64,000 bases of DNA, from NCBI GenBank assembly GCA_965243395.1, contig CBDEUS010000002.1:107444-171443 (forward strand), given 5' to 3'. This document shows positions 47,417-62,645 of the stretch, piece after piece; positions within the stretch are counted from its first letter, which is position 1; each line of letters begins with the position of its first letter. The notes under the pieces are model-generated. The model was not told where the DNA came from. It worked only from the letters and a program-made list of their open reading frames with translations, and did not search any database. The translations under genes were made by a program, and so were the position numbers. The stretch comes from Gammaproteobacteria bacterium. Its GTDB lineage: Bacteria > Pseudomonadota > Gammaproteobacteria > UBA4575.

Positions 47417-47461
47417 TGGTGGCCAGGGGCAGAATCGAACTGCCGACACGAGGATTTTCAG
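47417..47461 (-). repeat. direct repeat 2: 3' half of a tRNA-Phe(GAA) gene, att-site remnant
   Basis: minus strand reads CTGAAAATCCTCGTGTCGGCAGTTCGATTCTGCCCCTGGCCACCA; identity to a tRNA ends exactly at the 5' side of the anticodon loop. Confidence 0.75.
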
Positions 47462-47585
47462 CCTGCTTCATAACTGTAGATACTCGTGCACGTTTCGTGT
47501 TTAATAGTAATTAAATCTTACACTTAAAACGTTTAATTAATTTTAAACGTGTCTAATCGTAGCACGAAATCTTCCACCAAATGGT

Positions 47586-48881
47586 ATGAAAAAAGTGCAA
47601 GGGTGGTGCAAAGTTCGCTACGAGGATTTTTTGGAGGATGACCATATGAGTAAACATCAAATCCACTTAACCAAACACGATGTACAAAACTATCCACGAC
47701 CCGAACAAGGAATGCTTCGATTGTGGGACAGCGAGATTGAAGGTTTGTATGTTTTAATTCCAGCTGCAGGAAAACGAACCGCATACTTTCGTTATCGCAT
47801 TCAAGGACGCCAACGTGATTTTCGCATTGGTCGCATCGATCGTCTGAGCTTGAAGGCAATACGTGATGAAGCCAAAAAGTGCGCCGCGAGAGTCGAGCTT
47901 GGCCAAGACATACAAGAAGCCAGAAATGCAGCTAAGCTTGCGCTACGTGAAGCCAAAAATAATCAAGGTGCGCCCAATCTCCAATTGTTTGGAGACTTCT
48001 ATCAACACTATTACATCGATTATGCAAAAGCGACACTGAAAGATTATCGAAAACGTCTACGAGCCATCGAATTTAACTTTTCACAATGGTTTGATAAACG
48101 TTTAGATGAAATCAATGTGCCGTTAGTGGCTAGTTGGCGTAATCACAAACTGGCAACACCTGTTACAGTAGGCAAAGGCGACAATCAAAAACAACGTGAA
48201 CGTACTACCGGCGCGATCAATCGACCGGTTGGCTATTTGAAAGCGCTACTCTCCGTTGCTTATGAAGAAGCGGAGCTTTTGGATCATCACCCTCTTGATC
48301 GACTCAAACCTTTGAAAGAACCTCGACACAAGCGTGATCGGTTCTTAACCAATGAAGAATTTAAACGTTTACGTAATAGTTTGCGCGGACGTGATGATTA
48401 TCTACCGGTTTTAATAGAACTGGGTATTAACACAGGTTTGCGTTTGAATGAGATGCTCACCTTAGAATGGGGATCAGTTGATTTACGTAATCAGACGCTG
48501 ACGGTGGAAAGTCATTACGCCAAAAGCAAACGCAAGCGAACCGTTCCACTCAATAATTCGATTACCGCAGTCATACGTGATTGGAAACTTCGTACTCAAC
48601 GCTTTGGTCCATGGGTATTCACCAATCCGAATACCGATAATCACTACGTCTCCATTTACCGCGCATGGAATACAGCGATGCAAGAAGCCGGCATTGAAAA
48701 CTTCGTGCGTCATGATTTACGCCGTACCTTTGGCAGTTGGCTCGCCGAACGCGGTGAGAGCATTTATGTGATTAAGAATTTACTCGGACACTCCAGTGTG
48801 AAAGTCACCGAAGAAAGTTATGCGTATCTACAAGACAAATCTCAACGCGATGCGGTAGAACGCCTTGAAGCGATCGCATAG
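47586..48881 (+). CDS. int: tyrosine recombinase, P4-type integrase
   Basis: 431 aa; C-terminal catalytic box HDLRRTFGSWLAERG...LLGHSSVKVTEESYAY (R, H-x-x-R, Y). Confidence 0.85.
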   Translation: MKKVQGWCKVRYEDFLEDDHMSKHQIHLTKHDVQNYPRPEQGMLRLWDSEIEGLYVLIPAAGKRTAYFRYRIQGRQRDFRIGRIDRLSLKAIRDEAKKCAARVELGQDIQEARNAAKLALREAKNNQGAPNLQLFGDFYQHYYIDYAKATLKDYRKRLRAIEFNFSQWFDKRLDEINVPLVASWRNHKLATPVTVGKGDNQKQRERTTGAINRPVGYLKALLSVAYEEAELLDHHPLDRLKPLKEPRHKRDRFLTNEEFKRLRNSLRGRDDYLPVLIELGINTGLRLNEMLTLEWGSVDLRNQTLTVESHYAKSKRKRTVPLNNSITAVIRDWKLRTQRFGPWVFTNPNTDNHYVSIYRAWNTAMQEAGIENFVRHDLRRTFGSWLAERGESIYVIKNLLGHSSVKVTEESYAYLQDKSQRDAVERLEAIA

Positions 48882-49194
48882 TACTGCATGGAATAGTGTC
48901 ATTCATGACATTAAAAACCTCGTTGTACCCGATGCGAAAGAGCTCGCCCATTTGCTCGTATCCGAAAAAGAAATCCCTGGCATCGTACGCCTGTGGCTTG
49001 GGATGTATATTCTTAGCCATCTTAAACCGGATGGAAAACTGCTTAGAAGACACCAACGAAATCTCGTTCGCGATATTTATCAAGAGGCAATTAAAAATAA
49101 TATGAAACGTAAAGATGCAATCGAGTTTATCAGTAAACAAATCCACAAAAGCCCAAAAACCATCGAGGGTTACATCGATTCTCCACGTGAGTGA
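48865..49194 (+). CDS. hypothetical small protein (uncertain)
   Basis: 109-aa + strand ORF just downstream of int; competes with a minus ORF 48805-49320. Confidence 0.3.
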   Translation: MKRSHSTAWNSVIHDIKNLVVPDAKELAHLLVSEKEIPGIVRLWLGMYILSHLKPDGKLLRRHQRNLVRDIYQEAIKNNMKRKDAIEFISKQIHKSPKTIEGYIDSPRE

Positions 49195-49393
49195 GGTGCA
49201 GAGCCCAAATCCTCGCCTCATATAAAACAATCCACTCGGTTTCTGACAGTTACGACAAAGATTTAACGAACAGTTATTTTTTCCACTGTTGTTCCACCTA
49301 AAACACCTGAGTTTTTTCAAAAAATTCCGGTTTTAACCATTATTAACCGTCGCTATGGTGCATGCTTCATAGATCGAACACGAAGGTATCAAC

Positions 49394-49660
49394 ATGGAAC
49401 AAATGAGTAAAATAATTGGTTCAATACAAAATGGTGAAATCTTCACTTCAGGAGAAGCCGCAAAGTATTTAGGCGTATCGTACGAAACTCTAAAACGTGC
49501 CCGCTATACCAGCAAACTCAATGGGCAACCTGCTCCCAAACACATGCGTCTCAACTATCGAACTGTGGTCTATCGTAAAACCAGTTTGGATGAATGGCTG
49601 AACTCACTAGAAGAATTTGAAACTGGCGCAGAGGCCAATACGGCTCTGTATGAGAAATAG
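49394..49660 (+). CDS. AlpA/excisionase-like HTH protein
   Basis: 88 aa; HTH FTSGEAAKYLGVSYETLKRARY; typical position downstream of a P4-type int. Confidence 0.55.
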   Translation: MEQMSKIIGSIQNGEIFTSGEAAKYLGVSYETLKRARYTSKLNGQPAPKHMRLNYRTVVYRKTSLDEWLNSLEEFETGAEANTALYEK

Positions 49661-50123
49661 AGAAAAACCATTTCGATTTAAATGGGCAGATGCAGTACGA
49701 AATTCAGACTTACCCGCTACAACAAAACACGTGTTATTAGCGCTATCGACTTATATGAAGAATACAGGAACAGACTGTTGGCCTTCTTATCAAAGGATTG
49801 CCAAAGATACGAGTCGCAACCGAACCACAGTAATTAAGCATATACAAAATGCGGTGAATTTAGGTTGGATAGTCAAAAAAGTCAGGCACGATGTTCATGG
49901 TGATCATACAAGTAATGTGTATCTACCCAGAATTCCTAACAGTAGTCTTACTAAACAACTACCTGGTTGCAAACAACAACAACCTTGGTCAAAACTAAAT
50001 GGGACAGTAGTAGCAGCAGCCGACTCTAACAATACAATTAACCATATAACTAACAAGACGAATACGGTTATTAATGTAGAAGAATCAAGAAAACAAGTGC
50101 GTGAACTCGTAGGCTTAAAGTAA
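49617..50123 (+). CDS. phage/plasmid replication-associated HTH protein (HTH_36-like)
   Basis: TTKHVLLALSTYMKNTGTDCWPSYQRIAKDTSRNRTTVIKHIQNAVNLGWI. Confidence 0.5.
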   Translation: MKLAQRPIRLCMRNREKPFRFKWADAVRNSDLPATTKHVLLALSTYMKNTGTDCWPSYQRIAKDTSRNRTTVIKHIQNAVNLGWIVKKVRHDVHGDHTSNVYLPRIPNSSLTKQLPGCKQQQPWSKLNGTVVAAADSNNTINHITNKTNTVINVEESRKQVRELVGLK

Positions 50124-50137
50124 CAGGAATTTCAAAG

Positions 50138-50396: not shown

Positions 50397-51155
50397 TTAT
50401 TCAGAAAAAAATTCTTTTATAATATATTCACTACCTGAAATTATATTTTCATATAAAGCAAATGAAAAACTTAATAAACTTAATAATAATAATATCAAAA
50501 TCACTATCCTAACTGGCTTTCGTATAGTCGAGTACCTCCCAAATACCTCCCAAAATAATTCACGCTCAACCTCTTTAGTCTGTTCTATATCAAGCTCATT
50601 ATCTGAATTTAATATAGGCATGCCTAAAGAATAAATTTTACTTTTGTACTCAAAATATAGTACTGATTGATTTTCTTGAACATTAACTAATGGTATATCA
50701 GAAGCCTTAATGCCAAAATTTGATAATTCAGACTTACTTAGCTCTTTTATATATCCTTTTGTTTTTATTCTTTCAAAAAATTTTGGGAGCTCACTTTTTG
50801 CTTTCACAATATCTAATGAAATCCATGCAATCCAGCGTGGAGCATGTTTGTGAGACTTATAATCTGAAAATGATGAGTATGTCTTGATAAATTTTGGGCA
50901 AAATATCATATAAAGTATATATGCAATGACAAAAAACAAGGATGCAGCCCAAAGATATTGCCATGTAAATGGAAGTTGAAAATTTATAGTTAACGAAGAA
51001 TTTTCATTAACTTTGAATATAACTTGCTCGGGAACATTTTCTAATATTTTTGCAATTGCAGGTACAATTGCAAACCAAGCCACAAGATAGCGAAATACAG
51101 TTATATTAAATTTTTCGTTATACCATTGCCAATGAGAATATACATTATTCAACAT
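50397..51155 (-). CDS. hypothetical membrane protein (partner of radical-SAM gene)
   Basis: 252 aa; TMs at N-terminus, middle and C-terminus; start overlaps the radical-SAM stop by 7 nt. Confidence 0.45.
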   Translation of the reverse strand: MLNNVYSHWQWYNEKFNITVFRYLVAWFAIVPAIAKILENVPEQVIFKVNENSSLTINFQLPFTWQYLWAASLFFVIAYILYMIFCPKFIKTYSSFSDYKSHKHAPRWIAWISLDIVKAKSELPKFFERIKTKGYIKELSKSELSNFGIKASDIPLVNVQENQSVLYFEYKSKIYSLGMPILNSDNELDIEQTKEVERELFWEVFGRYSTIRKPVRIVILILLLLSLLSFSFALYENIISGSEYIIKEFFSE

Positions 51156-52375
51156 TTCACTTTATCCCACTTATAAATTTTCCTTCCGGATTTATCTTTA
51201 TCACCATTAAAGTATACTCCATAAAAAGTTGTTGGGTTAAATGGTGAATCCAGATTTTGCCAACGATGAAGCAAATAATCCTCAACAGTATTATGTGCAT
51301 TATTTCTTTTTGGTAATCGAGAATTTGAATTTAAGTGTTTATCAATTGATCCAGCTGGTTTCCAATATTTTTGGATTCGATCGTATGTAATATTTTCAAA
51401 TCCAGATTTTTTAACCGCATGACTTATTTGATACTTATTCCAATTTTCAAATCCATCAAATTGATCTACTCCACTACAACAACAGTTTGTGTCTGACATA
51501 TATTGAAGCTCATTATCAGCAGCACCAAATGTTATCCCAAATTTATTAGAAGCTGATTTAACTTCTTTTAGTCGTTCAATCTTATATTCAGGAGGTAGCA
51601 CATATTCTCTACCATCACGATTGGCTTTAGATAATTTATAATGATTATTTATATCAAAATCTAACTTAAGCGATAGGCGTCGCCATAACTCATTATTTTT
51701 TTCAATTGGTAGTTTCAAGTGTTCTAAACCGAGATGCTTTATCCCACTTGCAGCAATTGCGCTTACAAACTTGCTTGGATCTTCACTTACATTTGGTATA
51801 TATGGTTGCCATCTAACAGTTGTATTAATACCATTTCGCGATAGCTTACTTATTGCTTTTAATTTTTCTGAGGATGTAGGCGCATGTGGTTCAGAATAAT
51901 TAGAAATCTCATTTATTGCACTAGAGAAAGAATACTGAACAACTAAATGTGGATTAGATTTTAGAACATCTAAATATTCTTTTTCAGCAACTAGCGGTGA
52001 TTTTGTACTTATTACTACAGGATAATTTATCTCACATAAATATTTTAAAATCGCTAATGACACCCCACTTTTTTTCTCTGCAGGTTGAAATGGATCACTC
52101 ATACCTCCGAAATGTAGCGGAAGTCGATGTCTTATAGCTTCTGAAACAATACCTGTGGCCGTATCCGGATGTTTTATCGCAAATTTAAATCTTTTAATAA
52201 TTTTTTCAGGATCTGCAATTTTTAATTTTTTAGATGAAGTATTTCCCCCTCGAAGTCTGGCAAAACAGTAGCTACAGTTAAAATTACATCCCGAATATGT
52301 ATCAAGCCTAAAAGGTAAACCACAAAAACTGAATTGGCTAGTGATTCCAATTGGCGTCGTATATTCTATTGTCAT
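51149..52375 (-). CDS. radical SAM protein, spore-photoproduct-lyase-like (COG1533-type)
   Basis: CNFNCSYC = Cx3Cx2C near N-terminus; 408 aa. Confidence 0.65.
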   Translation of the reverse strand: MTIEYTTPIGITSQFSFCGLPFRLDTYSGCNFNCSYCFARLRGGNTSSKKLKIADPEKIIKRFKFAIKHPDTATGIVSEAIRHRLPLHFGGMSDPFQPAEKKSGVSLAILKYLCEINYPVVISTKSPLVAEKEYLDVLKSNPHLVVQYSFSSAINEISNYSEPHAPTSSEKLKAISKLSRNGINTTVRWQPYIPNVSEDPSKFVSAIAASGIKHLGLEHLKLPIEKNNELWRRLSLKLDFDINNHYKLSKANRDGREYVLPPEYKIERLKEVKSASNKFGITFGAADNELQYMSDTNCCCSGVDQFDGFENWNKYQISHAVKKSGFENITYDRIQKYWKPAGSIDKHLNSNSRLPKRNNAHNTVEDYLLHRWQNLDSPFNPTTFYGVYFNGDKDKSGRKIYKWDKVKC

Positions 52376-52592: not shown

Positions 52593-52667
52593 TGGAGGCC
52601 AGGGTCGGAGTTGAACCGACGTATTACACCTTGCTGGGGGTATGCATCACCACTCTGCCACCTGGCC
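52593..52667 (-). pseudogene. degenerate tRNA-like gene (Cys-like: anticodon GCA, U73) with broken anticodon stem and A33
   Basis: acceptor GGCCAGG/CCTGGCC, T-arm GTCGG-AGTTGAA-CCGAC, D-arm GCA-TCACCACTC-TGC; no 5-bp anticodon stem; loop CAGCAAG lacks U33; overlaps the ImmA stop by 21 nt. Confidence 0.4.
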
Positions 52668-53270
52668 TTTTAAGCTCACTCTTTGCAAATTTGCTAAAAT
52701 CTTCATTGCTTCGATTAAGGAGCAATCGTAAATTCTCATAATTTTTTCTTTATCTCTTTCGTCTCCAAGTAATCTTGAATCTAATAAAAACGCATCTCTA
52801 AATAAATCTGCTTGGCACTCGGAATCAGTATGTCTATCTACTGATTGAAATTCATCAGTTAAGTTTAGGTACTTGGATTTGTGATTACAGAAATAATGTC
52901 CAAGTTCGTGTGTAATTACTTGGAGAGCATCAAAAGAATATGATTCAGCAGCTGCCCAGATGCTTTCTCTAAACTGAAAAAAATTGGATGGATTATCTGT
53001 ATTATCTTTAGGACAAAATCTAGCTGGCCCGAAGTCCAATAAATCATCCTCAAGCAATTCAAAGTATGGATAATTGTTATCTGGGCTATGCTTAATACTA
53101 AAATATGTAATTAATTTTGTTGGATCTGCAAGATTTTTATTATTATTTCTAACAAATCCATATTCCAAACAGTAGTCTATAGCCTGATGTGCGATAGAAA
53201 CAATCTCATCATCTGATTTATACGGTACTTTGCAACCATAATTTCTTGTATCACGTAGAGTACTCATCAA
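52647..53270 (-). CDS. ImmA/IrrE-family metallopeptidase
   Basis: HExxH in THELGHYFCNH; 207 aa; overlaps the upstream XRE gene. Confidence 0.7.
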   Translation of the reverse strand: MMSTLRDTRNYGCKVPYKSDDEIVSIAHQAIDYCLEYGFVRNNNKNLADPTKLITYFSIKHSPDNNYPYFELLEDDLLDFGPARFCPKDNTDNPSNFFQFRESIWAAAESYSFDALQVITHELGHYFCNHKSKYLNLTDEFQSVDRHTDSECQADLFRDAFLLDSRLLGDERDKEKIMRIYDCSLIEAMKILANLQRVSLKGQVAEW

Positions 53271-53610
53271 GAATAGCCTTTATTCTTTTTTTGTCCTCAA
53301 CAGAAAGTTTTTTAAATCTTTGATGAAATGAATGAGTTAAAGCCCTCTCATCCAAACTATAATCATCAAGGTTAAGTTTTAATTGATTAATTGATAATTC
53401 CGCCCACTCATTCCATTGTTTTTTTGTAATCCCAAGGTTTTTAAAGAATTTGTAAGTCTTATTAATTATGTCTGTAGAAATTGGTTTCTTGCCATTCTCA
53501 ACCGCTGATAAATAACTAAGTTTGATACCCAAATACTCAGCCATTTCTGTCATGGTTACACCTTTATCTGTTCTGGCAATTCTGGCTTCTCTACCAAATT
53601 TTGTAATCAT
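53251..53610 (-). CDS. XRE-family HTH transcriptional regulator
   Basis: MTEMAEYLGIKLSYLSAVENGKKPIS; classic XRE-ImmA pair. Confidence 0.7.
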   Translation of the reverse strand: MITKFGREARIARTDKGVTMTEMAEYLGIKLSYLSAVENGKKPISTDIINKTYKFFKNLGITKKQWNEWAELSINQLKLNLDDYSLDERALTHSFHQRFKKLSVEDKKRIKAILDEYST

Positions 53611-53822: not shown

Positions 53823-54413
53823 TTAATCATTAAATCCGACTATAAATGAGATGCTATACATATCATTCCCTTCCGCATCGGTAATGATAGTGATGTTTTC
53901 TTGGGTAAGTATTTGATGCTCTTTTGGAATGTATTCTTGTTCAAGTACGGGACGCACTAATTTTAACAAAGACCGAGGTGATAACGACTCAATATCAATT
54001 ACTGAGAAAAATAAGGTAATGGCTGTCATCCCATCTTGCCACCATAATTCCAACCGGTAAGGTCTCTGGTTTTCTAACATACCGGATTTAGCACCAAGAT
54101 CCCCTTCACGTAATTGAGAATCATTACAATATTGATTAGGTATAAATTTAGATCGATTAGGTACTGGATACTTTGAAGTAGATTCAGAGTAACTACAATT
54201 ATGTGCAAAAGATCTAGAACCAATTTTCATGCGCTCTTTTTGTTGATCTTCTTGCCACCAAAAATATCCTATTATTCCACCCAGCATGAGGACAAGTGCG
54301 TTACCAGTGGTCAGTCCATGATCTAACACATAAACGGTTCCTAATATCAGAGCTGAAAGCCCGATAAGGTAAACGATCGTTTTGCCTGTATTTTTAATGG
54401 CCTTTAATTGCAT
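53823..54413 (-). CDS. hypothetical membrane protein
   Basis: 196 aa, two N-terminal TMs. Confidence 0.45.
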   Translation of the reverse strand: MQLKAIKNTGKTIVYLIGLSALILGTVYVLDHGLTTGNALVLMLGGIIGYFWWQEDQQKERMKIGSRSFAHNCSYSESTSKYPVPNRSKFIPNQYCNDSQLREGDLGAKSGMLENQRPYRLELWWQDGMTAITLFFSVIDIESLSPRSLLKLVRPVLEQEYIPKEHQILTQENITIITDAEGNDMYSISFIVGFND

Positions 54414-54469
54414 TCTTGTTTCATGAGTATATAGGTTTTACTTACTGTAGACTATAGTCCGTAGACTAT

Positions 54470-54733
54470 ATGTCACATCTGGATAAGGTCTATCACATGA
54501 TAGACCAACGGATTCTGCAAGATTGTTTTGGAGATGTGCTCCGAGAAGCTAGATTGCGTGCATCCTTATCACAAGAAGCCTTAGCGATGGAATGCGAGCT
54601 AGATCGTACTTTTATTTCAATGTTAGAGCGAGGTCAAAGACAGCCTTCACTCTCAACAATTTTTGCTCTATCTGATGCCCTTGGTATTAGACCCTCTACT
54701 CTATTGAAAAAAGTAGAAACTGCAACTGAGTAG
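54470..54733 (+). CDS. XRE-family HTH transcriptional regulator
   Basis: LSQEALAMECELDRTFISMLERGQRQPSLSTIFALSDALGIRPSTLL. Confidence 0.6.
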   Translation: MSHLDKVYHMIDQRILQDCFGDVLREARLRASLSQEALAMECELDRTFISMLERGQRQPSLSTIFALSDALGIRPSTLLKKVETATE

Positions 54734-54996: not shown

Positions 54997-55027
54997 AATA
55001 GCGGATAAAAATATAATTACCTGGCGA

Positions 55028-55702: not shown

Positions 55703-55769
55703 TTAATTATTCTCTATCTGTTGAACTATTAAATAAAATGAATGACCGCTTTGGCTCGTTAGCAGTCAT

Positions 55770-55799
55770 TTTGAACGTTTGTTTTCAAGCTTCCAACCA
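55770..55799. repeat. intergenic imperfect-palindrome repeat, copy 2
   Basis: AATGACCGCT-TTGGCTCGTT-AGCAGTCATT. Confidence 0.55.
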
Positions 55800-55824
55800 A
55801 ACTTCCCTTAAATTAATCTAAATT

Positions 55825-55852
55825 ATGTCCGCTTTCGGCCAATAGCGGACAT
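55825..55852. repeat. intergenic imperfect-palindrome repeat, copy 3 (25 bp right of copy 2)
   Basis: ATGTCCGCT-TTCGGCCAAT-AGCGGACAT; 9-bp perfect arms, 10-nt spacer. Confidence 0.6.
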
Positions 55853-55859
55853 TCATGAA

Positions 55860-56429
55860 CTAACCTTTTTCAAATAAATATTCATAGTTATTTCCATCAT
55901 CTTCTGATTCATGGATTAGTTCCCAGCCTGCATTATTAGCTAGTTCATTATATGCAGCCGAACCTAGGGAATAATATTTAAAAGAAATACCATTCATCTC
56001 ACCTATTGTTGTGTTTTTTTCCTTCGCAGACGTAAACAGAAATCGTCCACCACTAGCTACTGAATTAAAAACATTGTTTAGAACTTCTATCTGATCATCA
56101 GGATTGAGATGAAATAGTGCACCCCAACAAAGAACACCATCAATTGTAGTCTTAGGAAAAACATAATCTTGTAGACGTGAGTGGATTACAGCTGAGTTAG
56201 TAAAGTTTGATTTAAAAGATTCAACCATTAACCTTGAACTATCAACACCAAGTATATTCATCCCCATCTGTTTTATTGTATTGGCAAGCGGTAATCCTGT
56301 ACCGCAACCTAAATCAACAATAGTTGAACCTGGCTTTAAATTTTTGAATGCTAACTTAACAGAATCAACTCCCACGTCGTCATTCCTAGATTTAAGATAC
56401 CAGTCAAATATTTGATCGTATTCTTTCAA
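55860..56429 (-). CDS. class I SAM-dependent methyltransferase
   Basis: motif I VDLGCGTGL; 189 aa. Confidence 0.7.
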   Translation of the reverse strand: MKEYDQIFDWYLKSRNDDVGVDSVKLAFKNLKPGSTIVDLGCGTGLPLANTIKQMGMNILGVDSSRLMVESFKSNFTNSAVIHSRLQDYVFPKTTIDGVLCWGALFHLNPDDQIEVLNNVFNSVASGGRFLFTSAKEKNTTIGEMNGISFKYYSLGSAAYNELANNAGWELIHESEDDGNNYEYLFEKG

Positions 56430-56470
56430 GATTGTTAAATTGGTTTTTATCTGTTTTGGATCGTTTCAGT

Positions 56471-56932
56471 CTAATTTATCTTGTATTCTTTTTCCCAGTT
56501 ATCTAACTCAGCAAGTGTTAGTTCAATCATACGATCAGGGTTATTTCTCAGCAGCTTTAGTTTTTCTTTCGGTATATACACCAAATCATCTAAGTGCCTG
56601 CTAGACCATCGAACAAGATGAGTAAGGGTATGAACCAAGTCCTTACCGCTTTGAGTTAAATAATAAAGTTTACGGGTTCCATATTCAGGATGCGGTATCA
56701 CATCAATCAACTCATACTCAAGCAATCGATCTAGTCGGTTGCTCAGAATATTAGTGGAAATACCTTCCTCAGCGTCAAGTAGCTCTTTGTACTCATGTCG
56801 ATTGAAAAACAGTAGATCACGGATGATAAGAAGCGTCCATTTATCGCCAAGGACATCTAAGGCACACGCCACTGGACATTTCGTACGTTCACAGTGCAGT
56901 TGCTTAGGTGATGCCATATATATTACTTGCAA
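56471..56932 (-). CDS. HxlR-family winged-helix transcriptional regulator
   Basis: CPVACALDVLGDKWTLLIIRDLLFFNRHEYKEL. Confidence 0.65.
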   Translation of the reverse strand: MQVIYMASPKQLHCERTKCPVACALDVLGDKWTLLIIRDLLFFNRHEYKELLDAEEGISTNILSNRLDRLLEYELIDVIPHPEYGTRKLYYLTQSGKDLVHTLTHLVRWSSRHLDDLVYIPKEKLKLLRNNPDRMIELTLAELDNWEKEYKIN

Positions 56933-56973
56933 AATAAAAGTGATGTGTCTATAGTTTCATATCCACTTCCATT

Positions 56974-57696
56974 TTGCAAGTGGTATTTACTGAGGACATT
57001 ATTATGCCAACACATAACGTCGTGACACATAGAGAATGGGTAGCCGCTCGCAAACAACTGCTCGTAGAAGAAAAAGAATTTACTCGTCTTCGAGACCAGC
57101 TAAGCCAAAAACGTCGAGATTTACCTTGGGTAAAACTTGAAAAAGAATATGTATTTGATGGACCCAGTGGTCAGCATACTCTTTCAGATTTATTTGAGGG
57201 ACAAAGCCAGTTAATAGTGTATCACTTCATGTTAGGGCCTGATTGGGATGAAGGTTGTAAGAGCTGTTCGTTTTGGGCAGACAATTTTGAAGGTACAGAT
57301 ATTCATCTAAAGCATCGTGATATTACCTTTCTTGCCATATCAAGAGCTGAAATTGAAAAAATTGAAGCTTATAAAAAACGTATGGGCTGGACCTTTAAAT
57401 GGTTTTCTTCATTCAATACAGATTTCAATTATGACTTCCAAGCCTCGTTTACTTCGGATCAGAAAGAAAAGAATGAAGTGATCTATAACTACATTAAACA
57501 ACCCTATTTTATAGATGAGATGGCAGGGGTAAGTGTATTTATCAAAGATGAGAATAATAACATCTTTCACACCTACTCTACTTATGCTCGTGGTTTGGAT
57601 ATTTTAAATGGTGCCTACAACTATATTGATTTAACACCTATGGGACGTAATGAGGAAGACGGCATGTCATGGCTACGGCATCATGATCAATATTAG
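56974..57696 (+). CDS. DUF899 thioredoxin-like family protein
   Basis: 240 aa; CKSCSF motif; divergent from the HxlR regulator. Confidence 0.55.
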   Translation: MQVVFTEDIIMPTHNVVTHREWVAARKQLLVEEKEFTRLRDQLSQKRRDLPWVKLEKEYVFDGPSGQHTLSDLFEGQSQLIVYHFMLGPDWDEGCKSCSFWADNFEGTDIHLKHRDITFLAISRAEIEKIEAYKKRMGWTFKWFSSFNTDFNYDFQASFTSDQKEKNEVIYNYIKQPYFIDEMAGVSVFIKDENNNIFHTYSTYARGLDILNGAYNYIDLTPMGRNEEDGMSWLRHHDQY

Positions 57697-57723
57697 TTTC
57701 AAATATAAATCTATCAATACCAT

Positions 57724-58119
57724 ATGAAAGCTTTAACTAGTGGCAGGTGCATGTGCGGTGCAATACGTTATGAATTTAACGACAAACCTTTATATTCACT
57801 CATCTGCCAATGTACACAGTGTCAAAAAATTACTGGCGCTGGTAATGCGCCTTCCATAGCAATTGCAAATGAAACATTCAAGCTTGAAGGAAAACTAAGT
57901 TATTTTAAACAGTTAGCAGAAGATGGAAATACGGTCAGCAATGGGTTTTGTTCAAAATGTGGAAATCCCATTCTCAAAACAACCACCGCATTTCAAGACC
58001 GAGTTTACCTGCATGTAGGTAGTTTAGATGATCCAGGAAAGTTTGAACCAGAATTCGTTGTATTTAGTAGAAGTGGGTATTCATGGGACACCGTTGATCC
58101 TAAATTAAAGCGGCTCTAA
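57724..58119 (+). CDS. GFA-family (CENP-V / glutathione-dependent formaldehyde-activating-like) zinc protein
   Basis: CMCGAIRYEF, CQCTQCQKITG, CSKCGNP cysteine pattern. Confidence 0.65.
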   Translation: MKALTSGRCMCGAIRYEFNDKPLYSLICQCTQCQKITGAGNAPSIAIANETFKLEGKLSYFKQLAEDGNTVSNGFCSKCGNPILKTTTAFQDRVYLHVGSLDDPGKFEPEFVVFSRSGYSWDTVDPKLKRL

Positions 58120-58161
58120 TTAAAGCTAATTAATCTTAATCAATAGAAGAAAAGAATTACC

Positions 58162-58572
58162 ATGAAAAAATTTATTCTCGCTACACTTTCATTTTTCATT
58201 TTAACTATGCCCTGGGCATATTCGTGGCATGTGATTTGGTTTCATGAGCTTTATGGACAACTAGGAGCATTTACGCGCACATCGCCCATTATGCCTCTTG
58301 GTATTGCGGCGGTATTAATACAAGGTGCTGTTATATCTTATCTCTATCCATTTTATTACCGAGGTGGGCATCCAATATTTCAAGGAATTAAGTTCAGCTT
58401 AATTATCGGTTTAATGGTGTATACAGTGATGGGTTTTGCTAATGCTGCAAAGCTTGCGATTGAGCCTATTTCAACCTACTTGGCGTACCATACAATTTTT
58501 CAGCTCATTCAGTTCGTTGTTACCGGTGCAGCACTAGGATTAATTTATGGTAGAACACTGAACTCAGCATAA
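58162..58572 (+). CDS. hypothetical membrane protein
   Basis: 136 aa, 4 TMs. Confidence 0.45.
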   Translation: MKKFILATLSFFILTMPWAYSWHVIWFHELYGQLGAFTRTSPIMPLGIAAVLIQGAVISYLYPFYYRGGHPIFQGIKFSLIIGLMVYTVMGFANAAKLAIEPISTYLAYHTIFQLIQFVVTGAALGLIYGRTLNSA

Positions 58573-58579
58573 ATAATTT

Positions 58580-58607
58580 ATGTCAGATTTCGACCATTAG
58601 CGGTCAT
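58580..58607. repeat. intergenic imperfect-palindrome repeat, copy 4 (degenerate left arm)
   Basis: ATGTCAGAT-TTCGACCATT-AGCGGTCAT, between convergent genes. Confidence 0.5.
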
Positions 58608-58612
58608 TCCTT

Positions 58613-58975
58613 TTACAAATCAACCAAGACATTAAACCCACCCATAATCATTCTATTGATTTCAAATGGCATATTATTTTCATCACAGCTTTCTTTCATG
58701 CGTGGATCTTGAAATACCTTTTGATTGACTTCATCACGATGTTCTCTTGATTTATATACGACAAATGCAAATATTACGGTCTCACCATCGGATGAATTGG
58801 CCGCTTTGCGGAATGCGCCATTAGACATTTCTGAATCAATATCATCAGCGATGCATTCTTTATAAGCTAAAGCACCATGCTCCATCCAGACTGCACCCAT
58901 TTTCTTTGCCAAATCTTTATATGCATCAATATTAGATTCAGGTAGTGGGATTACATAACCATCGACATAACTCAT
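58613..58975 (-). CDS. DUF1428-like small protein
   Basis: 120 aa, MSYVDGYVIPLPESNIDAYKDLAKKMGAVWMEHGALAYKECIADD. Confidence 0.45.
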   Translation of the reverse strand: MSYVDGYVIPLPESNIDAYKDLAKKMGAVWMEHGALAYKECIADDIDSEMSNGAFRKAANSSDGETVIFAFVVYKSREHRDEVNQKVFQDPRMKESCDENNMPFEINRMIMGGFNVLVDL

Positions 58976-59012
58976 TTTTTAATTCCTAATATAATTACTT
59001 TTATAAGACTAA

Positions 59013-59040
59013 ATGTCCGCTTTGGGCCGTAAGTAGTCAT
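59013..59040. repeat. intergenic imperfect-palindrome repeat, copy 5 (degenerate right arm)
   Basis: ATGTCCGCT-TTGGGCCGTA-AGTAGTCAT. Confidence 0.5.
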
Positions 59041-59177
59041 CTTAAACCATGACCTGGTGAGATGTATTCCTTGTTTCAGATACTTGAAAGGCGATATGCG
59101 GACCACCAATCCCCTGTTCTTAATAAGTATAGCTAATTTTTATAATCACTTTTGTAGCAAAGGAAGAAAATAATATG

Positions 59178-59582
59178 TTAATCATGTTTGGGTAAGTCGT
59201 CTACAATATCAATTATGCGCCTACCATAGAAAAAATGACTATCAGAATGTAATTCTTCAGGTAGTTCATTGTTATTACATTTTCTGATTAAAAGCTGAGA
59301 GAAAACACGCCAGTCCATCGCATTTGTGTTGAAAAGTGTTTCGCCACAACTCGAACAAAATACTCGTTTCATCTCTAAGGTTGGATGTTGATGACTTGAT
59401 AATTTCTCCTCTCCCTGCACGATATTAACTTGATCTTTATTCCAAGCAGTTACGGAGTGAAAAGGAATGCATAGTAAGTCACGACAATCCTCACAATGGC
59501 AAAACCCTTTTACTCTTGGCTTACCAGATAGGGATATTTTAACTTCACCACATTCACATTTTATTTGATATTGTTTATCCAT
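59178..59582 (-). CDS. GFA-family zinc protein (second copy)
   Basis: CECGEVKI, CHCEDCRD, CSSCGETLF cysteine pattern. Confidence 0.6.
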   Translation of the reverse strand: MDKQYQIKCECGEVKISLSGKPRVKGFCHCEDCRDLLCIPFHSVTAWNKDQVNIVQGEEKLSSHQHPTLEMKRVFCSSCGETLFNTNAMDWRVFSQLLIRKCNNNELPEELHSDSHFFYGRRIIDIVDDLPKHD

Positions 59583-59611
59583 TATTAAAATCTCAATTAC
59601 TTTATACTGTA

Positions 59612-60196
59612 TTAAAATATTTTATTTAGATGTCCTGAAAATCGTTTAAGGTCGCTATCAATCTGCGGGTTTTTCATTACATCGAAACATGCAAATGTTT
59701 CTAGCGCTGTCATGCCAAAAAAACGAAAGTTCATGTGCATCGGGAAAAACAAATCATCTACTTTTTTTCCTTGAAATAGATATTCACTCTGATTTTCAAA
59801 TGATTCTTCAGGTGCATTGAAAGTTAATGAAAGCATATACTTAGTATTAGTTAGTGTGCCACCTCCCCCATAGTTTAATTTTGGGTTCTCGGTTGTTCTG
59901 CCATCTCCATTGCATAAGTCACCACCCATACCGGCTGAATATACTTCATCCATATACTTCTTAAAACTCCATGGTACTCCCATCCAATTAACGGGACTTT
60001 GCAAAATGATGTAGTTCGCCCATTTATGTTTTTCTAATTCATCCTTTACATCATATTCCTCTGCACTAACCGTCCTTTGTACTTGGTAACCTTTTTCTTT
60101 TAAATAAGAGATAGCGCTATCCGTTAACGTTTGATTAAGTTTGCCTTCTGAAAATGGATATGGCTGATGCGCTTTAATATGTAGAATATTTTTCAT
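59612..60196 (-). CDS. flavodoxin-like-fold NAD(P)H dehydrogenase (quinone) family protein
   Basis: 194 aa; N-terminus [12 protein letters not shown]... and [15 protein letters not shown] match the Flavodoxin_2/KefF-like family. Confidence 0.6.
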
Positions 60197-60281
60197 ATAA
60201 GCTAGTCTCTAATAATTTTACGGTTAACTGCGAGTTGAAACATTCATTTGATATTCCAACTCGCATCTGGATTAAATGCCA

Positions 60282-61115
60282 TTACGCTACTTTTGCTTTA
60301 TTTAAGTCTGGCCCAACTTGTAGATCCCAAAGACTGTCTTGGTACTTTTTACAATCTTCAATAAAACGCTCAGGATAAACATTGCGAAAGTTATGATTGT
60401 CCTTTGGTATAACATCAACCATAAACTCAATCATACTTTGTGGATCAAGTTGTAACTCATCACCAGAAAACAAACCTTGAATTTCACGAATGGGTGCTTC
60501 GGCACTAAAATTATTGCTAGGCTCATACCACTGATCTAAGGTGTCATACATACGATCATTAAACCCTGTACGGAAAGGCCCTGGGTTAATCGTTGCGATA
60601 GTGACGCCTGTATCTTGCATTTCTTCACGCATCAATTGAACAATTGCTTCAAGTGCATGTTTTGAAGCAACATAAGGCGCAAGATATGGAAAGGTTGAAA
60701 ATCCGACGATAGAAGAAGTAAATATAATTTTGCCTTTCCCTTTTTCAACAAAAGCTTTTGCAAATGCTTGAGCTAATTCAAGTGTATTAAATACATTGAC
60801 TTCAAAAACTTGTCGAATCCGATCTACAGGGATTTCTGCCACAGGTCCTGTTTGTCCAGTCGCTGCATTTGGTACAAATATATCTACTTTATCTGAATAT
60901 TTTCGGATAATGGTTTCATGGTCATCCTTGTTTAAGTAATCTAACTTAGTCACTTCTAACTCAACACCCTCTGTATTAGCTGCTTCCATTAATGCCGAAA
61001 CCTGTGGCCAATTTTCACAAGTGGCAATTACATTGTGACCATTTTTCGCAAGCCCAATTGCCGTACCTTTACCAAGTCCTGAGCCTGCACCTGTAATTAA
61101 AATTGTTTTACTCAT
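60282..61115 (-). CDS. SDR-family oxidoreductase
   Basis: TGAGSGLG cofactor motif, catalytic YVASK; 277 aa. Confidence 0.75.
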   Translation of the reverse strand: MSKTILITGAGSGLGKGTAIGLAKNGHNVIATCENWPQVSALMEAANTEGVELEVTKLDYLNKDDHETIIRKYSDKVDIFVPNAATGQTGPVAEIPVDRIRQVFEVNVFNTLELAQAFAKAFVEKGKGKIIFTSSIVGFSTFPYLAPYVASKHALEAIVQLMREEMQDTGVTIATINPGPFRTGFNDRMYDTLDQWYEPSNNFSAEAPIREIQGLFSGDELQLDPQSMIEFMVDVIPKDNHNFRNVYPERFIEDCKKYQDSLWDLQVGPDLNKAKVA

Positions 61116-61144
61116 TTTTCATACCTCATATATTAAAATGTGAA

Positions 61145-61465
61145 TTAAATGATTTGATGTCCTTTATGAATGACTGGATTTCTCTCCAGTACATTAGTTA
61201 ATTTCTCAATGGCTGAATTCAGATGAGGTGTTTCCCAATGAGCACTCTCATCATCTACAGTCCTCCATTTTTCATACGATAAAATAGTGTTAGCTTTCTC
61301 TTTATCGTGGATAAAGAAATATTCGATTGCCCCAGCTTCCTTTCGAGTATTTGTTGCTAGGTCATTTAGAATCGCTTTCAACTCATCATATTTGCCATCT
61401 TTGGCAGTGAGTTCTGCAATGGTGTACATGTATTCACTCATAGTATTTTCTCCTTTCAATCTCAT
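61145..61465 (-). CDS. ABM (antibiotic-biosynthesis-monooxygenase-like) domain protein
   Basis: 106 aa, ferredoxin-like fold pattern. Confidence 0.5.
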   Translation of the reverse strand: MRLKGENTMSEYMYTIAELTAKDGKYDELKAILNDLATNTRKEAGAIEYFFIHDKEKANTILSYEKWRTVDDESAHWETPHLNSAIEKLTNVLERNPVIHKGHQII

Positions 61466-61545
61466 GAATTTTTCAATGTTGAAAAATATATCGATTCAGG
61501 TTACTATAATCAACCAGTATACTTTTAGTAACCTAATAAGTTTTC

Positions 61546-61902
61546 ATGGAAAGTAGAGTAAAAACAGATAGTAAAGGCCGTAAAAGTGTCATTGAGCCAT
61601 GTTTAGAACCATGTCCAATTGAACGTGGTATGCGAATACTTGGAGGCAAATGGAAAGGATCTATTTTGTGGCATTTGAAAGATGAGCCAGTTCGATTTAA
61701 TGACCTAACACGAATGTTGGGTGGTGCTAGTAAGAAGATGGTTGATCAGCGGTTGAAAGAAATGGAAAAGGAAGGATTAATTGTTCGTAAAGTTCTAAGT
61801 GAACGCCCGATTGCTGTTACCTACCAAGCGACAGAATTTGGCAAAAGTGCTTTAAGCATTCTTGATGGCTTAAAAACTTGGACTGAAGCAAATAATCTCT
61901 AA
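61546..61902 (+). CDS. HxlR-family winged-helix transcriptional regulator
   Basis: CPIERGMRILGGKWKGSILWHLKDEPVRFNDLTRML; divergent from the ABM/SDR genes. Confidence 0.7.
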   Translation: MESRVKTDSKGRKSVIEPCLEPCPIERGMRILGGKWKGSILWHLKDEPVRFNDLTRMLGGASKKMVDQRLKEMEKEGLIVRKVLSERPIAVTYQATEFGKSALSILDGLKTWTEANNL

Positions 61903-61923
61903 AAGACCAAACTTTTCTAGTAA

Positions 61924-61950
61924 ATGTCCGCTTTAGATCGTTAGCGGTCA
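61924..61950. repeat. intergenic imperfect-palindrome repeat, copy 6
   Basis: ATGTCCGCT-TTAGATCGTT-AGCGGTCA, between the HxlR gene and terS. Confidence 0.5.
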
Positions 61951-62153
61951 ATTTAAACTATGCTCTGCAGAGATGTATTCATCCAATCAGCTAAATTTAA
62001 TTAAAGTAAAACAGTGTATTACGCACTGCATGACACCGAATAGACTTCTATCCACCATACTTCCACCAACTCTCAGCTTTTTTAGCATCAATAATTCTCT
62101 TATCTATGAGCTCATGATGCCTAAAACCTGTCATTTCCTGTATTTTAGTCTTT

Positions 62154-62609
62154 ATGAAAATCTGTTCCAAAAACTTAAAACGAGATCTGTTTGTCCGTCA
62201 TTATCTAAACCATCTCAACATTAATGAGGCATATAAACGAGCGGGGTTTTCGCCAGATGATGCCAATGCAAATCGATATTTCCATCGCAAAGATGTCCAA
62301 TTAGCATTGGAAGCACATGCTGCTAAGACATTACAGAAACTTGATATCAGTATTGACAAAACGATCAAGCATCTTGCTGCTATAGCTTATGGAAACGCTC
62401 TAGACGTAATGGAATATGAGACTGGGAAATGGAAGTTTAAAGAACTTCATGAACTCCCGCCTTGGGTCGCAGTATCGTTAAGAAAGTTTGATAAACAAGA
62501 TAATAGAATATCTTATTCTTTTGAACCAAAAATTCCAGCTCTTAAACTTTTACTTAAGTACCTTGAACTAAGAAAATTACTAAACAGACAGTCACAAGTC
62601 GGAAATTGA
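62154..62609 (+). CDS. terS: phage terminase small subunit (Terminase_2 / P27-like), orphan
   Basis: N-terminus KRDLFVRHYLNHLNINEAYKRAGFSPDDA matches the FV-EYL-NATEAA-RAGYS signature; no large-subunit or structural genes nearby. Confidence 0.65.
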   Translation: MKICSKNLKRDLFVRHYLNHLNINEAYKRAGFSPDDANANRYFHRKDVQLALEAHAAKTLQKLDISIDKTIKHLAAIAYGNALDVMEYETGKWKFKELHELPPWVAVSLRKFDKQDNRISYSFEPKIPALKLLLKYLELRKLLNRQSQVGN

Positions 62610-62645
62610 AATTTAGCTATGTTCTTATTAAACAACCAAATCTTT

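What the first reader, a model, noticed from the sequence alone, without database searches (positions are those of the whole stretch)
47417..62640. Island with PICI-like backbone (int, alpA-like, rep-HTH, XRE/ImmA, terS) but stress/detox cassette cargo
From the att fragment rightwards: P4-type integrase, excisionase-like HTH, replication-type HTH protein, radical-SAM + membrane pair, ImmA/XRE pair, second XRE, then ~7 kb of small oxidative/electrophile-stress genes, and finally a lone terminase small subunit directly abutting core pqiC. These stress genes include a methyltransferase, two HxlR regulators, a DUF899, two GFA, an NAD(P)H-quinone reductase-like protein, an SDR and an ABM protein. 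An orphan terS plus int/alpA/rep without structural genes is the hallmark of phage-inducible chromosomal islands that hijack helper-phage packaging. The cargo here is unusually large and metabolic.
Basis: partly seen in the sequence, partly recalled or inferred. Interest (0 to 1): 0.6.

Follow-up and report, generated by a model that had tools for sequence, protein, structure and literature searches.

The report
Mosaic tRNA-Phe island with orphan terminase

Summary
Observation confirmed. A 47-nt tRNA-Phe 3' fragment (47417-47463) is followed by a P4-type integrase, an HTH_17 excisionase-like gene, an HTH_36 Rep-O-like gene, a radical-SAM/membrane pair, ImmA/XRE, a second XRE, about 7 kb of redox/detox genes, and a Terminase_2 terS 36 bp from pqiC.

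Interpretation partly supported. Against a related MAG contig (L003), everything from 47392 to 62121 is extra DNA, so it is not core. It is a mosaic:
- about 7.5 kb integrase module, whose int-to-HTH_17 part is higher in GC and recurs elsewhere with other cargo and no terS in view;
- about 7 kb of HxlR-regulated detox operons separated by REP-like palindromes;
- a discrete 675-bp terS module that recurs elsewhere without an integrase.

No primase/helicase, capsid-remodelling gene, right-hand att site, intact tRNA-Phe or helper prophage is present in the window, so PICI membership fails.

In relatives, terS sits next to tRNA-Phe or its fragment, occurs twice in a tandem array and is under purifying selection (dN/dS 0.07-0.23). 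I read this as a family of tRNA-Phe islands with terS at the tRNA-proximal end, possibly moved by phage packaging. That mechanism is inferred, not shown.

The parts
47386..47463 (-). Left attachment-site copy: the 47-nt 3' part of tRNA-Phe (47417-47463, CCA end to anticodon loop) plus about 30 nt of conserved downstream flank.
   Evidence: Exact match to intact tRNA-Phe in L003, L001 and L007; identity stops at the anticodon loop. Blast of 47386-47461 against L001 18197-18273 gives 91%. The same fragment lies directly before the integrase homologue in L016.
47586..48881 (+). P4-type tyrosine integrase with an arm-binding domain.
   Evidence: Phage_integrase 97.6 bits, Arm-DNA-bind_3 50.3 bits; phrog_1 210 bits. 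Homologues at 85%, 59% and 56% identity in L014, L015 and L016.
48865..49194 (+). Small ORF (109 aa) of unknown function between int and the HTH_17 gene.
   Evidence: 31% tblastn match at the same position in L014. No hit in Pfam, PHROGs or PADLOC.
49394..49660 (+). HTH_17 excisionase / AlpA-like DNA-binding protein (88 aa).
   Evidence: PF12728 30.8 bits, gathering score 27; phrog_66 'excisionase and transcriptional regulator'. 86%, 68% and 60% identical in L014, L015 and L016.
49617..50123 (+). HTH_36 protein (168 aa) matching only the N-terminal DNA-binding part of lambda-O-like replication initiators.
   Evidence: PF13730 52 bits. PHROG replication-initiator families match only about the first 150 positions of profiles 280-455 long. 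No homologue in L014-L016. No convincing iterons.
50397..52375 (-). Radical-SAM enzyme (PA0069/SplB-like, 51149-52375) with an overlapping 252-aa membrane protein (50397-51155); accessory cargo of unknown role.
   Evidence: Radical_SAM 38.6 bits. NCBIfam rSAM_PA0069 80.6 bits, below its cut-off. PADLOC gives only a trivial pVip motif hit.
52593..52667 (-). tRNA-like gene with a full cloverleaf, encoded CCA and an 8-nt anticodon loop; its acceptor stem is identical to that of tRNA-Phe.
   Evidence: ARAGORN 'anticodon cagc'. Rfam tRNA 45.9 bits. The ImmA-like ORF terminates inside its 5' end.
52647..53610 (-). ImmA-like HExxH metalloprotease (52647-53270) and its XRE partner (53251-53610).
   Evidence: HELGH motif visible in the translation; phrog_87 metallo-protease; weak capP/capH-like PADLOC hits; HTH_3.
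53823..54733 (.). 196-aa unknown ORF (53823-54413, -) and a divergent 87-aa XRE / C-protein-like regulator (54470-54733, +); probable right edge of the integrase-linked module.
   Evidence: HTH_3 52.9 bits. A 59% identical homologue lies about 5 kb downstream of the integrase in L015, where REP palindromes also begin 1.6 kb further on.
54981..61950 (.). REP-punctuated redox/electrophile-stress cargo. Module M1: 224-aa membrane protein (55028-55702). M2: MTase and HxlR divergent from DUF899, GFA and a 136-aa ORF (55860-58572). M3: DUF1428 (58613-58975). M4: GFA, Flavodoxin_2, SDR and ABM divergent from HxlR (59178-61902).
   Evidence: Pfam. Six copies of the 26-27-nt palindrome TGTCCGCTTT-N6-AAAGCGGACA at 54981, 55742, 55825, 58580, 59013 and 61924, and none elsewhere in the window. 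The same palindrome is scattered in related genomes L017, L007, L015, L016, L001 and L002.
61970..62070 (+). About 100-nt repeat element ('E110'): GAGATGTATTC ... ATCCACC-N5-TTCCACCAA, with a paired TGGTGGA motif at 11-bp spacing on the - strand.
   Evidence: Further copies at window 20917-21016 and 28257-28356, and in L001 (twice), L002, L003 and L006. No conserved RNA fold. Its reverse complement aligns with the terS-to-tRNA-Phe spacer of L001, L003, L005 and L007 at the paired motif.
62154..62609 (+). Orphan terminase small subunit (151 aa). The discrete module E110 + terS + 35 bp spans 61970-62644.
   Evidence: Terminase_2 55.8 bits and phrog_51. The module is 92% identical to L006 1539-2213 and 81% to L002, with different neighbours on both sides. 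dN/dS is 0.07-0.23 among seven copies.
14005..14049 (-). Second, slightly decayed tRNA-Phe 3' fragment (3 mismatches) in the same orientation, at the left edge of a 24-kb insertion relative to L003. It lies outside the finding but belongs to the same att-site array.

Best explanation
Window 47392-62644 is a composite island at a tRNA-Phe integration hotspot in an uncultured Legionellales-like gammaproteobacterium. It has three parts with different histories.

1. An integrase module of about 7.5 kb. It runs att fragment, int, small ORF, HTH_17, then a Rep-O-like HTH, the radical-SAM/membrane pair, a tRNA-like gene, ImmA/XRE, and ends at the second XRE. It recombines at the anticodon-loop-to-CCA part of tRNA-Phe.
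2. About 7 kb of chromosome-style DNA carrying HxlR-regulated electrophile/redox-stress operons, separated by REP-like palindromes.
3. A 675-bp module holding an intact, selectively maintained orphan terS.

In relatives the same terS family is the gene nearest the tRNA at tRNA-Phe islands. The order there is terS, then a spacer with paired TGGTGGAA repeats, then tRNA-Phe or its fragment. In L001 two such units sit in tandem.

Inferred mechanism: islands of this family insert by Int at tRNA-Phe and pile up in tandem. TerS recognises a site in or beside its own gene and recruits a helper phage's large terminase. The island and neighbouring integrase-less cargo are then packaged and transduced, either as in a satellite or by in-situ (lateral-transduction-like) packaging.

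The window copy has lost the spacer and the tRNA-side att site, so Int-mediated excision is probably disabled.

Shown: the anatomy, the insertion relative to a relative, the modularity, the linkage of terS to att sites in relatives, and purifying selection on terS. Inferred: packaging, the existence of a helper phage, the role of the repeats, and the order of events.
For: - Insertion: L003 matches window 43252-47391 at 88% identity and then goes straight to terS and an intact tRNA-Phe.
- terS is linked to att sites. L001 copy 2, L003 and L007 have terS, a 95-nt spacer and an intact tRNA-Phe; in L001 and L007 yggX and mutY follow. L001 copy 1 has terS, the spacer, a tRNA-Phe fragment, then 7 kb of integrase-less cargo, then the second terS. 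L002 has a tRNA-Phe fragment 2.3 kb to the left of terS.
- The integrase end is conserved: the att fragment lies directly before int in L016, and int - ORF - HTH_17 recurs in L014, L015 and L016.
- terS is functional and exchanged horizontally. dN/dS is 0.07-0.23. The two L001 copies are 72% identical. Window and L003 terS are 70% identical in protein although the flanking GH3 and MR_MLE proteins are 92% and 89% identical.
- Mosaic structure: the GC step, REPs confined to 54981-61950, and the terS module sharing exact boundaries with L006.
- terS has a full-length HMM match.
- Known precedent: PICI TerS redirects packaging (PMC6092414), and PICI-mediated lateral transduction moves adjacent chromosomal DNA (PMC12829572).
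Against: - No locus in hand shows int and terS-spacer-tRNA in one uninterrupted unit, because the contigs are short.
- The window's terS has no spacer and no tRNA-Phe to its right, and its paired repeats lie upstream in inverted orientation. The window-type and L003-type modules are therefore not simply the same island end.
- No helper phage, terL or pac site has been identified. The nearest phage TerS proteins are 33% identical or less, from Bacillus, Faecalibacterium and Fusobacterium phages.
- The family is tiny in public data: 13 proteins, and almost nothing in the metagenome and IMG/VR scans.
- terS next to tRNA-Phe could instead be a resident chromosomal gene that incoming islands merely flank or copy.
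Confidence: 0.5

Rival explanations
1. Canonical PICI: one coherent phage-inducible chromosomal island that excises, replicates from its own origin and is packaged through its TerS, and that carries unusually large metabolic cargo.
For: int, an AlpA-like HTH, a Rep-like HTH and terS lie in the SaPI-like order int ... terS. No structural or lysis genes are present. PICIs may carry accessory genes (PMC10085698, PMC6092414).
Against: No primase-replicase module and no capsid-morphogenesis or interference gene, which makes it at best a 'Type C' element. The authors of PMC10085698 exclude Type C as possibly defective elements or random aggregates. No right-hand att site or intact tRNA. int and terS modules occur separately in relatives. 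About 12 kb of REP-bearing, heterogeneous DNA separates rep from terS.
Confidence: 0.12
2. Only the integrase module (about 47.4-54.9 kb) is a mobile element. The detox genes and terS are older resident or recombined chromosomal DNA, and the TerS-like protein has been co-opted for a non-packaging role, for example as an att-site architectural or directionality factor or a transcription regulator that binds the paired TGGTGGAA repeats.
For: terS is always beside an att core or the paired repeats, which look like arm-type sites. REP palindromes typical of the lineage's chromosomes fill the cargo. The cargo's GC matches the genome. terS is kept intact without any other phage gene.
Against: terS alleles are far more diverged than the flanking genes, and two divergent alleles sit in one tandem array. 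That pattern fits import with incoming DNA better than a resident host factor. The HMM match covers the whole Terminase_2 profile, not only the HTH. The cargo is absent from L003, L004 and L005 at this locus.
Confidence: 0.2
3. terS is a leftover of a decayed prophage that once sat at tRNA-Phe, and its proximity to the integrase island is coincidental.
For: tRNA genes are common prophage sites, and no other packaging gene is nearby.
Against: All seven full-length copies are intact, with dN/dS 0.07-0.23 and synonymous sites near saturation in many pairs. The gene is conserved in at least five contigs, each time without any other phage gene. Independent decay would not leave the same single gene each time.
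Confidence: 0.05
4. The cargo is an integron-like cassette array, with the palindromes acting as attC-type recombination sites.
Against: There is no integron integrase. The only integrase is P4-type with an arm-binding domain, and it scores far below the integron-integrase cut-offs. The palindromes are 26 nt long and lack the R''/R' core boxes. Genes lie in both orientations, and modules hold up to five genes with their own regulators. The same palindrome is scattered through ordinary intergenic regions of relatives, with at least 10 copies in 20 kb of L017, as REP elements are.
Confidence: 0.03

Closest known systems
Phage-inducible chromosomal islands (PICIs, including SaPIs and Gram-negative PICIs such as PmCI172)
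   Same: Integrase at one end and terS near the other. An AlpA/excisionase-type HTH lies after int. No structural or lysis genes. Accessory genes are tolerated. TerS-directed hijacking of helper capsids is the obvious way an orphan terS could work (PMC6092414, PMC10085698).
   Different: No primase/helicase replication module and no origin iterons. No capsid-size or interference genes. Regulators are not placed between int and rep. About 12 kb of REP-bearing metabolic DNA lies between rep and terS. The right att site is missing. int and terS modules are found apart in relatives. The site is a tRNA gene with tandem accretion.
P4-like satellites and other P4-type-integrase tRNA islands (CP4-57-type genomic or defence islands)
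   Same: P4-family integrase with an arm-binding domain. The att site is the 3' part of a tRNA. AlpA-like HTH. Variable accessory cargo downstream (for example AAA_15/AAA_21 with a ClpX-like gene in L014, and MazG and UDG/SocA in L015). Tandem arrays form at one tRNA.
   Different: No psu-delta-sid genes, no ash, and no alpha primase-helicase. Here int lies next to the displaced tRNA fragment, not next to the intact tRNA. terS is not a P4 component.
PICMIs (phage-inducible chromosomal minimalist islands, Vibrionaceae; PMC10803314)
   Same: A minimalist satellite idea: int and alpA plus few other functions, no capsid remodelling, and a hotspot with high cargo turnover.
   Different: PICMIs require a DUF3987/DUF5906 primase, integrate beside fis and have no terS. 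None of these three features holds here.
PICI- or phage-mediated lateral transduction platforms (PMC12829572, PMC8575950)
   Same: A terS/pac unit fixed in the chromosome beside blocks of accessory genes, with tandem island copies. This would explain how integrase-less cargo next to terS moves between genomes.
   Different: Lateral transduction has been shown only for complete prophages and SaPIs with a known helper. Here no helper, pac site or packaging direction is known.

Membership tests
PICI (core components as listed in PMC10085698) | Integrase | tested here: met
   Phage_integrase 97.6 bits plus Arm-DNA-bind_3; phrog_1.
PICI | Regulation module (alpA, merR or stl homologue) | tested here: inconclusive
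   The 88-aa protein matches HTH_17 (PF12728) at 30.8 bits and phrog_66, but no Phage_AlpA (PF05930) hit was listed. The NCBIfam 'excise' model scores below its cut-off. The XRE/ImmA pair lies 3 kb away, not between int and rep.
PICI | Primase-replicase module with an adjacent origin | tested here: not met
   Only a 168-aa HTH_36 domain that matches the N-terminal third of O-like initiators. No primase, helicase or loader domain in any ORF. No iteron array. The gene is absent from the related integrase modules L014-L016.
PICI | Capsid-morphogenesis or phage-interference gene | tested here: not met
   No head, scaffold, cpm, ppi or rpp-like hit by Pfam or PHROGs among the ORFs scanned. The PHROGs scan covered 10 ORFs only.
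PICI | Small terminase subunit | tested here: met
   Terminase_2 55.8 bits against a gathering score of 26.1, nearly full profile; phrog_51 57.1 bits.
PICI | No tail, holin or other structural genes | tested here: met
   None found in 47.4-62.6 kb or elsewhere in the window.
PICI | Flanked by attL and attR direct repeats; specific att site | tested here: not met
   Only the left copy (47417-47463) is present. The only other copy in the window is at 14005-14049, to the left. There is no copy and no intact tRNA-Phe between 47464 and 64000.
PICI | Helper-phage-dependent induction, replication and packaging | not testable with these tools
   Needs a culture or virome data. No prophage is present in the 64-kb window.
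PICMI (PMC10803314) | int, alpA and a DUF3987/DUF5906 primase, integrated next to fis | tested here: not met
   No primase domain and no fis gene; the site is tRNA-Phe.
P4-like satellite (PMC10085698) | psu-delta-sid, ash (epsilon) and alpha primase-helicase in addition to int and alpA | tested here: not met
   No such hits in the Pfam or PHROGs scans of the ORFs between int and the radical-SAM gene.
Integron cassette array / CALIN | attC sites with R''/R' boxes, co-oriented single-gene cassettes, IntI nearby | tested here: not met
   The palindromes are 26 nt and REP-like, and occur widely in the intergenic regions of relatives. Genes lie in both orientations and in multi-gene modules. The integrase scores 46 bits against a 265-bit cut-off for the integron-integrase model.
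tRNA-targeting P4-family integrative island | Tyrosine integrase with an arm domain, an att site equal to the 3' part of a tRNA, and absence from the same locus in a relative | tested here: met
   The same fragment-int junction is present in L016.

The most novel reading that the evidence does not exclude
A previously undescribed family of islands in uncultured Legionellales-like bacteria, in which a TerS gene next to the tRNA-Phe attachment site is the only conserved and selectively maintained function. It would act as a minimal 'terS-only' satellite or built-in transduction platform. It would let blocks of chromosomal cargo, including integrase-less units stacked in tandem, be packaged by a helper phage's large terminase. 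The paired TGGTGGAA repeats would serve as the TerS recognition site or as integrase arm sites.
Probability: 0.25. Interest if true: 0.7.

Novelty: new variant of a known kind. Interest (0 to 1): 0.45.

Why it matters
If the orphan terS really directs packaging, this would be a satellite-like strategy stripped of replication and capsid-remodelling functions. It would occur in a lineage (Legionellales-like bacteria) for which almost no phages or satellites are known. It would also tie phage packaging to the turnover of stress and detoxification operons at a tRNA hotspot. It shows as well that searches for 'int + alpA + terS' can assemble apparent PICIs from independent modules that only happen to be neighbours. 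If terS proves to be a co-opted att-site factor, that would be a new use for a terminase fold.

Tried and rejected
- Exact-protein look-ups for the window's pqiC, terS and integrase found nothing.
- The region 17-37 kb has no match in the phage collection. Pfam shows it is not a prophage, so there is no helper candidate in the window.
- The island against the plasmid collection matched only the tRNA fragment, in a Legionella adelaidensis record.
- Scans of metagenome and IMG/VR contigs with the terS alignment gave one hit and four distant hits, too few to widen the family.
- terS against known phages gave 33% identity or less, so no helper clue. The PDB profile search gave only weak matches to SF6-type TerS.
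- The AlphaFold model of TerS had mean pLDDT 58.7, too poor for a fold search, so none was run.
- The iteron search was negative.
- PADLOC found no known defence system in the integrase module.
- The E110 repeat has no conserved RNA structure, so an sRNA reading was dropped.
- The promoter/terminator scan around terS was uninformative.
- I considered whether the tRNA-like gene at 52.6 kb is the island's right att site. It shares only the acceptor stem and a generic T-arm with the fragment, so I rejected that reading.
- I considered whether pqiCBA is island cargo. A relative (L017) has the operon in another context without terS, so it is most likely chromosomal.

Full report
**1. Observation**

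- The left edge carries a perfect 47-nt copy of the 3' part of tRNA-Phe, from CCA to the anticodon loop, on the - strand at 47417-47463.
- There follow a P4-type integrase with an arm-binding domain (47586-48881), a small ORF, an HTH_17 excisionase-like protein (49394-49660) and an HTH_36 protein (49617-50123).
- Next come a membrane-protein/radical-SAM pair (50397-52375), an ImmA-like HExxH protein with its XRE partner (52647-53610), a 196-aa ORF and a second XRE (54470-54733).
- Then there are about 7 kb of small redox/electrophile-stress genes.
- The last gene is a 151-aa Terminase_2 protein (62154-62609; 55.8 bits against a gathering score of 26.1; phrog_51). Its stop codon lies 36 bp from that of a pqiC-type gene.

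**2. It is an insertion, and its left end is a true att copy**

- A terS homologue led to contig L003 (NCBI GCA_020357715.1). L003 matches window 43252-47391 at 88% nucleotide identity; the GH3 and MR_MLE proteins are 92% and 89% identical.
- In L003, MR_MLE is followed after 55 bp by terS, then a 95-nt spacer, then an intact tRNA-Phe on the - strand.
- Window 47392-62121 is therefore extra DNA relative to this relative, so the right portion is not conserved core.
- The identity between the window fragment and the intact tRNA stops at the anticodon loop, as expected for an att core of a P4-family integrase.
- The same fragment lies immediately upstream of the integrase homologue in L016.
- Legionella adelaidensis has tRNA-Phe next to yggX, as do L001 and L007, which place yggX-mutY there. 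This points to a Legionellales-like host; the related loci are labelled only 'MAG: Gammaproteobacteria'.

**3. The island is a mosaic of three parts**

(a) Integrase module.
- GC is 40-44% over int to HTH_17, against 31-38% elsewhere.
- int, the small ORF and HTH_17 recur in L014 (85% and 86% protein identity), L015 and L016. The downstream cargo differs each time: AAA_15/AAA_21 with a ClpX-like gene in L014, and MazG, UDG/SocA and SRAP in L015. No terS is visible in the up to 10 kb downstream.
- The Rep-like gene is not shared with these loci.
- The second XRE has a 59% identical homologue about 5 kb downstream of int in L015, where REP palindromes also begin 1.6 kb further on.
- I therefore place the right edge of the integrase-linked module near 54.9 kb.

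(b) Cargo, 54981-61950.
- Six oriented copies of a 26-27-nt palindrome (TGTCCGCTTT-N6-AAAGCGGACA) delimit four modules. Two of the modules are complete divergent HxlR regulons.
- The palindrome occurs nowhere else in the 64-kb window.
- It is scattered through intergenic regions of related genomes, with at least 10 copies in 20 kb of L017 and further copies in L007, L015, L016, L001 and L002.
- It is therefore a lineage-wide REP-like element, not an integron attC. This marks the cargo as chromosome-type DNA, possibly imported from a REP-rich relative.

(c) terS module, 61970-62644.
- This consists of a roughly 100-nt repeat element (E110), terS and 35 bp.
- It is 92% identical to L006, where the neighbours are pirin and a nitroreductase on one side and unrelated genes on the other. 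It is 81% identical to L002.
- Homology with L006 ends at 62644, one base before the pqiC stop codon.

**4. What terS does in relatives**

- All 13 homologues found are 58-91% identical and full length.
- In L001 copy 2, L003 and L007 the order is terS, spacer, intact tRNA-Phe.
- In L001 copy 1 it is terS, spacer, a tRNA-Phe fragment, then 7 kb of integrase-less cargo (GDT1, Phenol_MetA_deg, a 17-kDa antigen, DUF5666), then the second terS, spacer and the intact tRNA. That is a tandem array in which each unit ends in terS.
- L002 has a tRNA-Phe fragment 2.3 kb to the left of terS. L005 keeps the spacer and a fragment without terS.
- The spacer begins with TGGTGGAAGATTGGTGGAA, a pair of repeats one helical turn apart. 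E110 carries the same pair in inverted orientation.
- dN/dS among seven copies is 0.07-0.23 wherever synonymous sites are not saturated.
- The two L001 copies share only 72% identity. The window and L003 proteins share 70%, although the flanking genes are about 90% identical.
- terS is therefore a functional gene that is exchanged horizontally and travels with att-proximal DNA. It is neither a decaying prophage remnant nor a plainly vertical core gene.

**5. Inferred architecture and mechanism**

- Combining the two ends seen in different contigs gives this family layout: tRNA-Phe fragment, int, ORF, HTH_17, variable cargo, terS, repeat-bearing spacer, tRNA-Phe.
- The window follows this order but lacks the spacer and the intact tRNA. 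The only other att copy in the window is at 14005-14049, to the left. No tRNA-Phe of this type exists in the window. Int-mediated excision of this copy is therefore unlikely unless a partner site lies beyond 64 kb.
- The most economical function for a conserved orphan TerS is the one established for PICIs: it recognises a pac site on its own element and recruits the helper's large terminase (PMC6092414).
- Because the gene sits fixed beside blocks of accessory DNA and in tandem arrays, in-situ packaging of the kind described for SaPI-mediated lateral transduction (PMC12829572) would also explain how integrase-less units move.
- All of this step is inference. No helper, terL or pac site is known, and the nearest phage TerS proteins are 33% identical or less.

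**6. Comparison with known families**

- PMC10085698 lists five PICI core components: integrase, regulator, primase-replicase, capsid morphogenesis and terS.
- Here integrase and terS are met. The regulator is arguable (HTH_17). The primase-replicase and capsid components are absent.
- The element would be at best 'Type C', a class those authors set aside as possibly defective elements or chance aggregates.
- The missing right att site and the separate occurrence of the int and terS modules in relatives weigh further against membership.
- PICMI membership fails: no primase, no fis site, and PICMIs lack terS (PMC10803314).
- P4-like membership fails: no psu, delta, sid, ash or alpha genes.
- The integron-cassette reading fails (section 3b above).
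- Membership of the broad class of P4-integrase tRNA islands is met.

**7. Surroundings**

- Relative to L003 the window has two further insertions.
- The first spans 13984-38200 and starts with the decayed tRNA-Phe fragment. It carries CitMHS, PPK2, flotillin/YqiJ/PspA, desaturases, AraC, RlaP and RtcB, an HNH endonuclease, 25 tRNA genes and a GOLLD RNA.
- The second spans 40522-43252 and carries a fatty-acid hydroxylase and a DCC1-like protein.
- Neither is a prophage.
- The whole stretch from 14 to 62.6 kb thus looks like an old, rearranged accretion zone around tRNA-Phe att copies. I could not reconstruct the order of events.
- pqiABC is conserved in another relative (L017) without terS, so it is probably chromosomal.

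**8. Verdict**

- The region is a new variant of a known kind: a tRNA-targeting integrative island, mosaic and probably crippled. Its notable feature is an att-linked, selectively maintained orphan terS shared by a small family of islands in uncultured Legionellales-like bacteria.
- Interest is moderate at 0.45. The satellite or transduction-platform reading is plausible (probability about 0.25 for the strong form) and testable, but nothing functional has been shown.

Noticed in passing
window 35747-36234 (-), inside the tRNA array 32897-37034: A GOLLD RNA (Rfam RF02032, 153.5 bits, gathering score 150) with an embedded tRNA-Leu. It sits in an array of 25 tRNA genes, next to an HNH endonuclease (33194-33760) and upstream of RtcB (29474-30670) and RlaP (28369-29151). 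The whole set lies in a 24-kb non-prophage insertion. It may be a tRNA supply and repair island.
   Followed up: partly
window 52593-52667 (-): A tRNA-like gene with a perfect cloverleaf, encoded CCA and 60% GC, but an 8-nt anticodon loop (CCCAGCAA; ARAGORN 'cagc'). Its acceptor stem is identical to that of tRNA-Phe. It is a candidate quadruplet-decoding or frameshift-suppressor tRNA, or a damaged tRNA. The ImmA-like ORF ends inside its 5' end.
   Followed up: partly
window 13999-14086: A second tRNA-Phe 3' fragment (3 mismatches) in the same orientation as the one at 47417. It lies directly after the SBP gene, at the left edge of a 24-kb insertion relative to L003. The 36 bp after it match the left end of the integrase-less island in L001.
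   Followed up: partly
window 20917-21016, 28257-28356, 61970-62070; also L001 5332 and 11106, L002 9813, L003 2983, L006 1539: A repeat element of about 100 nt with conserved ends (GAGATGTATTC ... ATCCACC-N5-TTCCACCAA) and a variable centre, often next to a REP palindrome. In L003 it sits exactly where the window has the 24-kb insertion. It has no conserved RNA fold. It shares the paired TGGTGGA motif with the terS-to-tRNA spacer. It may be a recombination or protein-binding site.
   Followed up: partly
window 54981-61950; L017, L007, L015, L016, L001, L002: A REP-like 26-nt palindrome family (TGTCCGCTTT-N6-AAAGCGGACA). It is common in related genomes but confined to the cargo part of this window. 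This suggests the cargo was imported from a REP-rich relative.
   Followed up: partly
window 40522-43252: A 2.7-kb insertion relative to L003, L004 and L005. It carries a second fatty-acid hydroxylase (40769-41500), a 165-aa ORF and a 412-aa protein with a DCC1-like thiol-disulfide oxidoreductase domain.
   Followed up: no
L014 4963-7921; L015 5482-8519: Islands with the same integrase family carry cargo that looks like defence genes: AAA_15/AAA_21 ATPase with a ClpX-like AAA protein in L014, and MazG_C, UDG/SocA_Panacea and SRAP in L015. The space downstream of int - HTH_17 appears to be a cargo hotspot.
   Followed up: no
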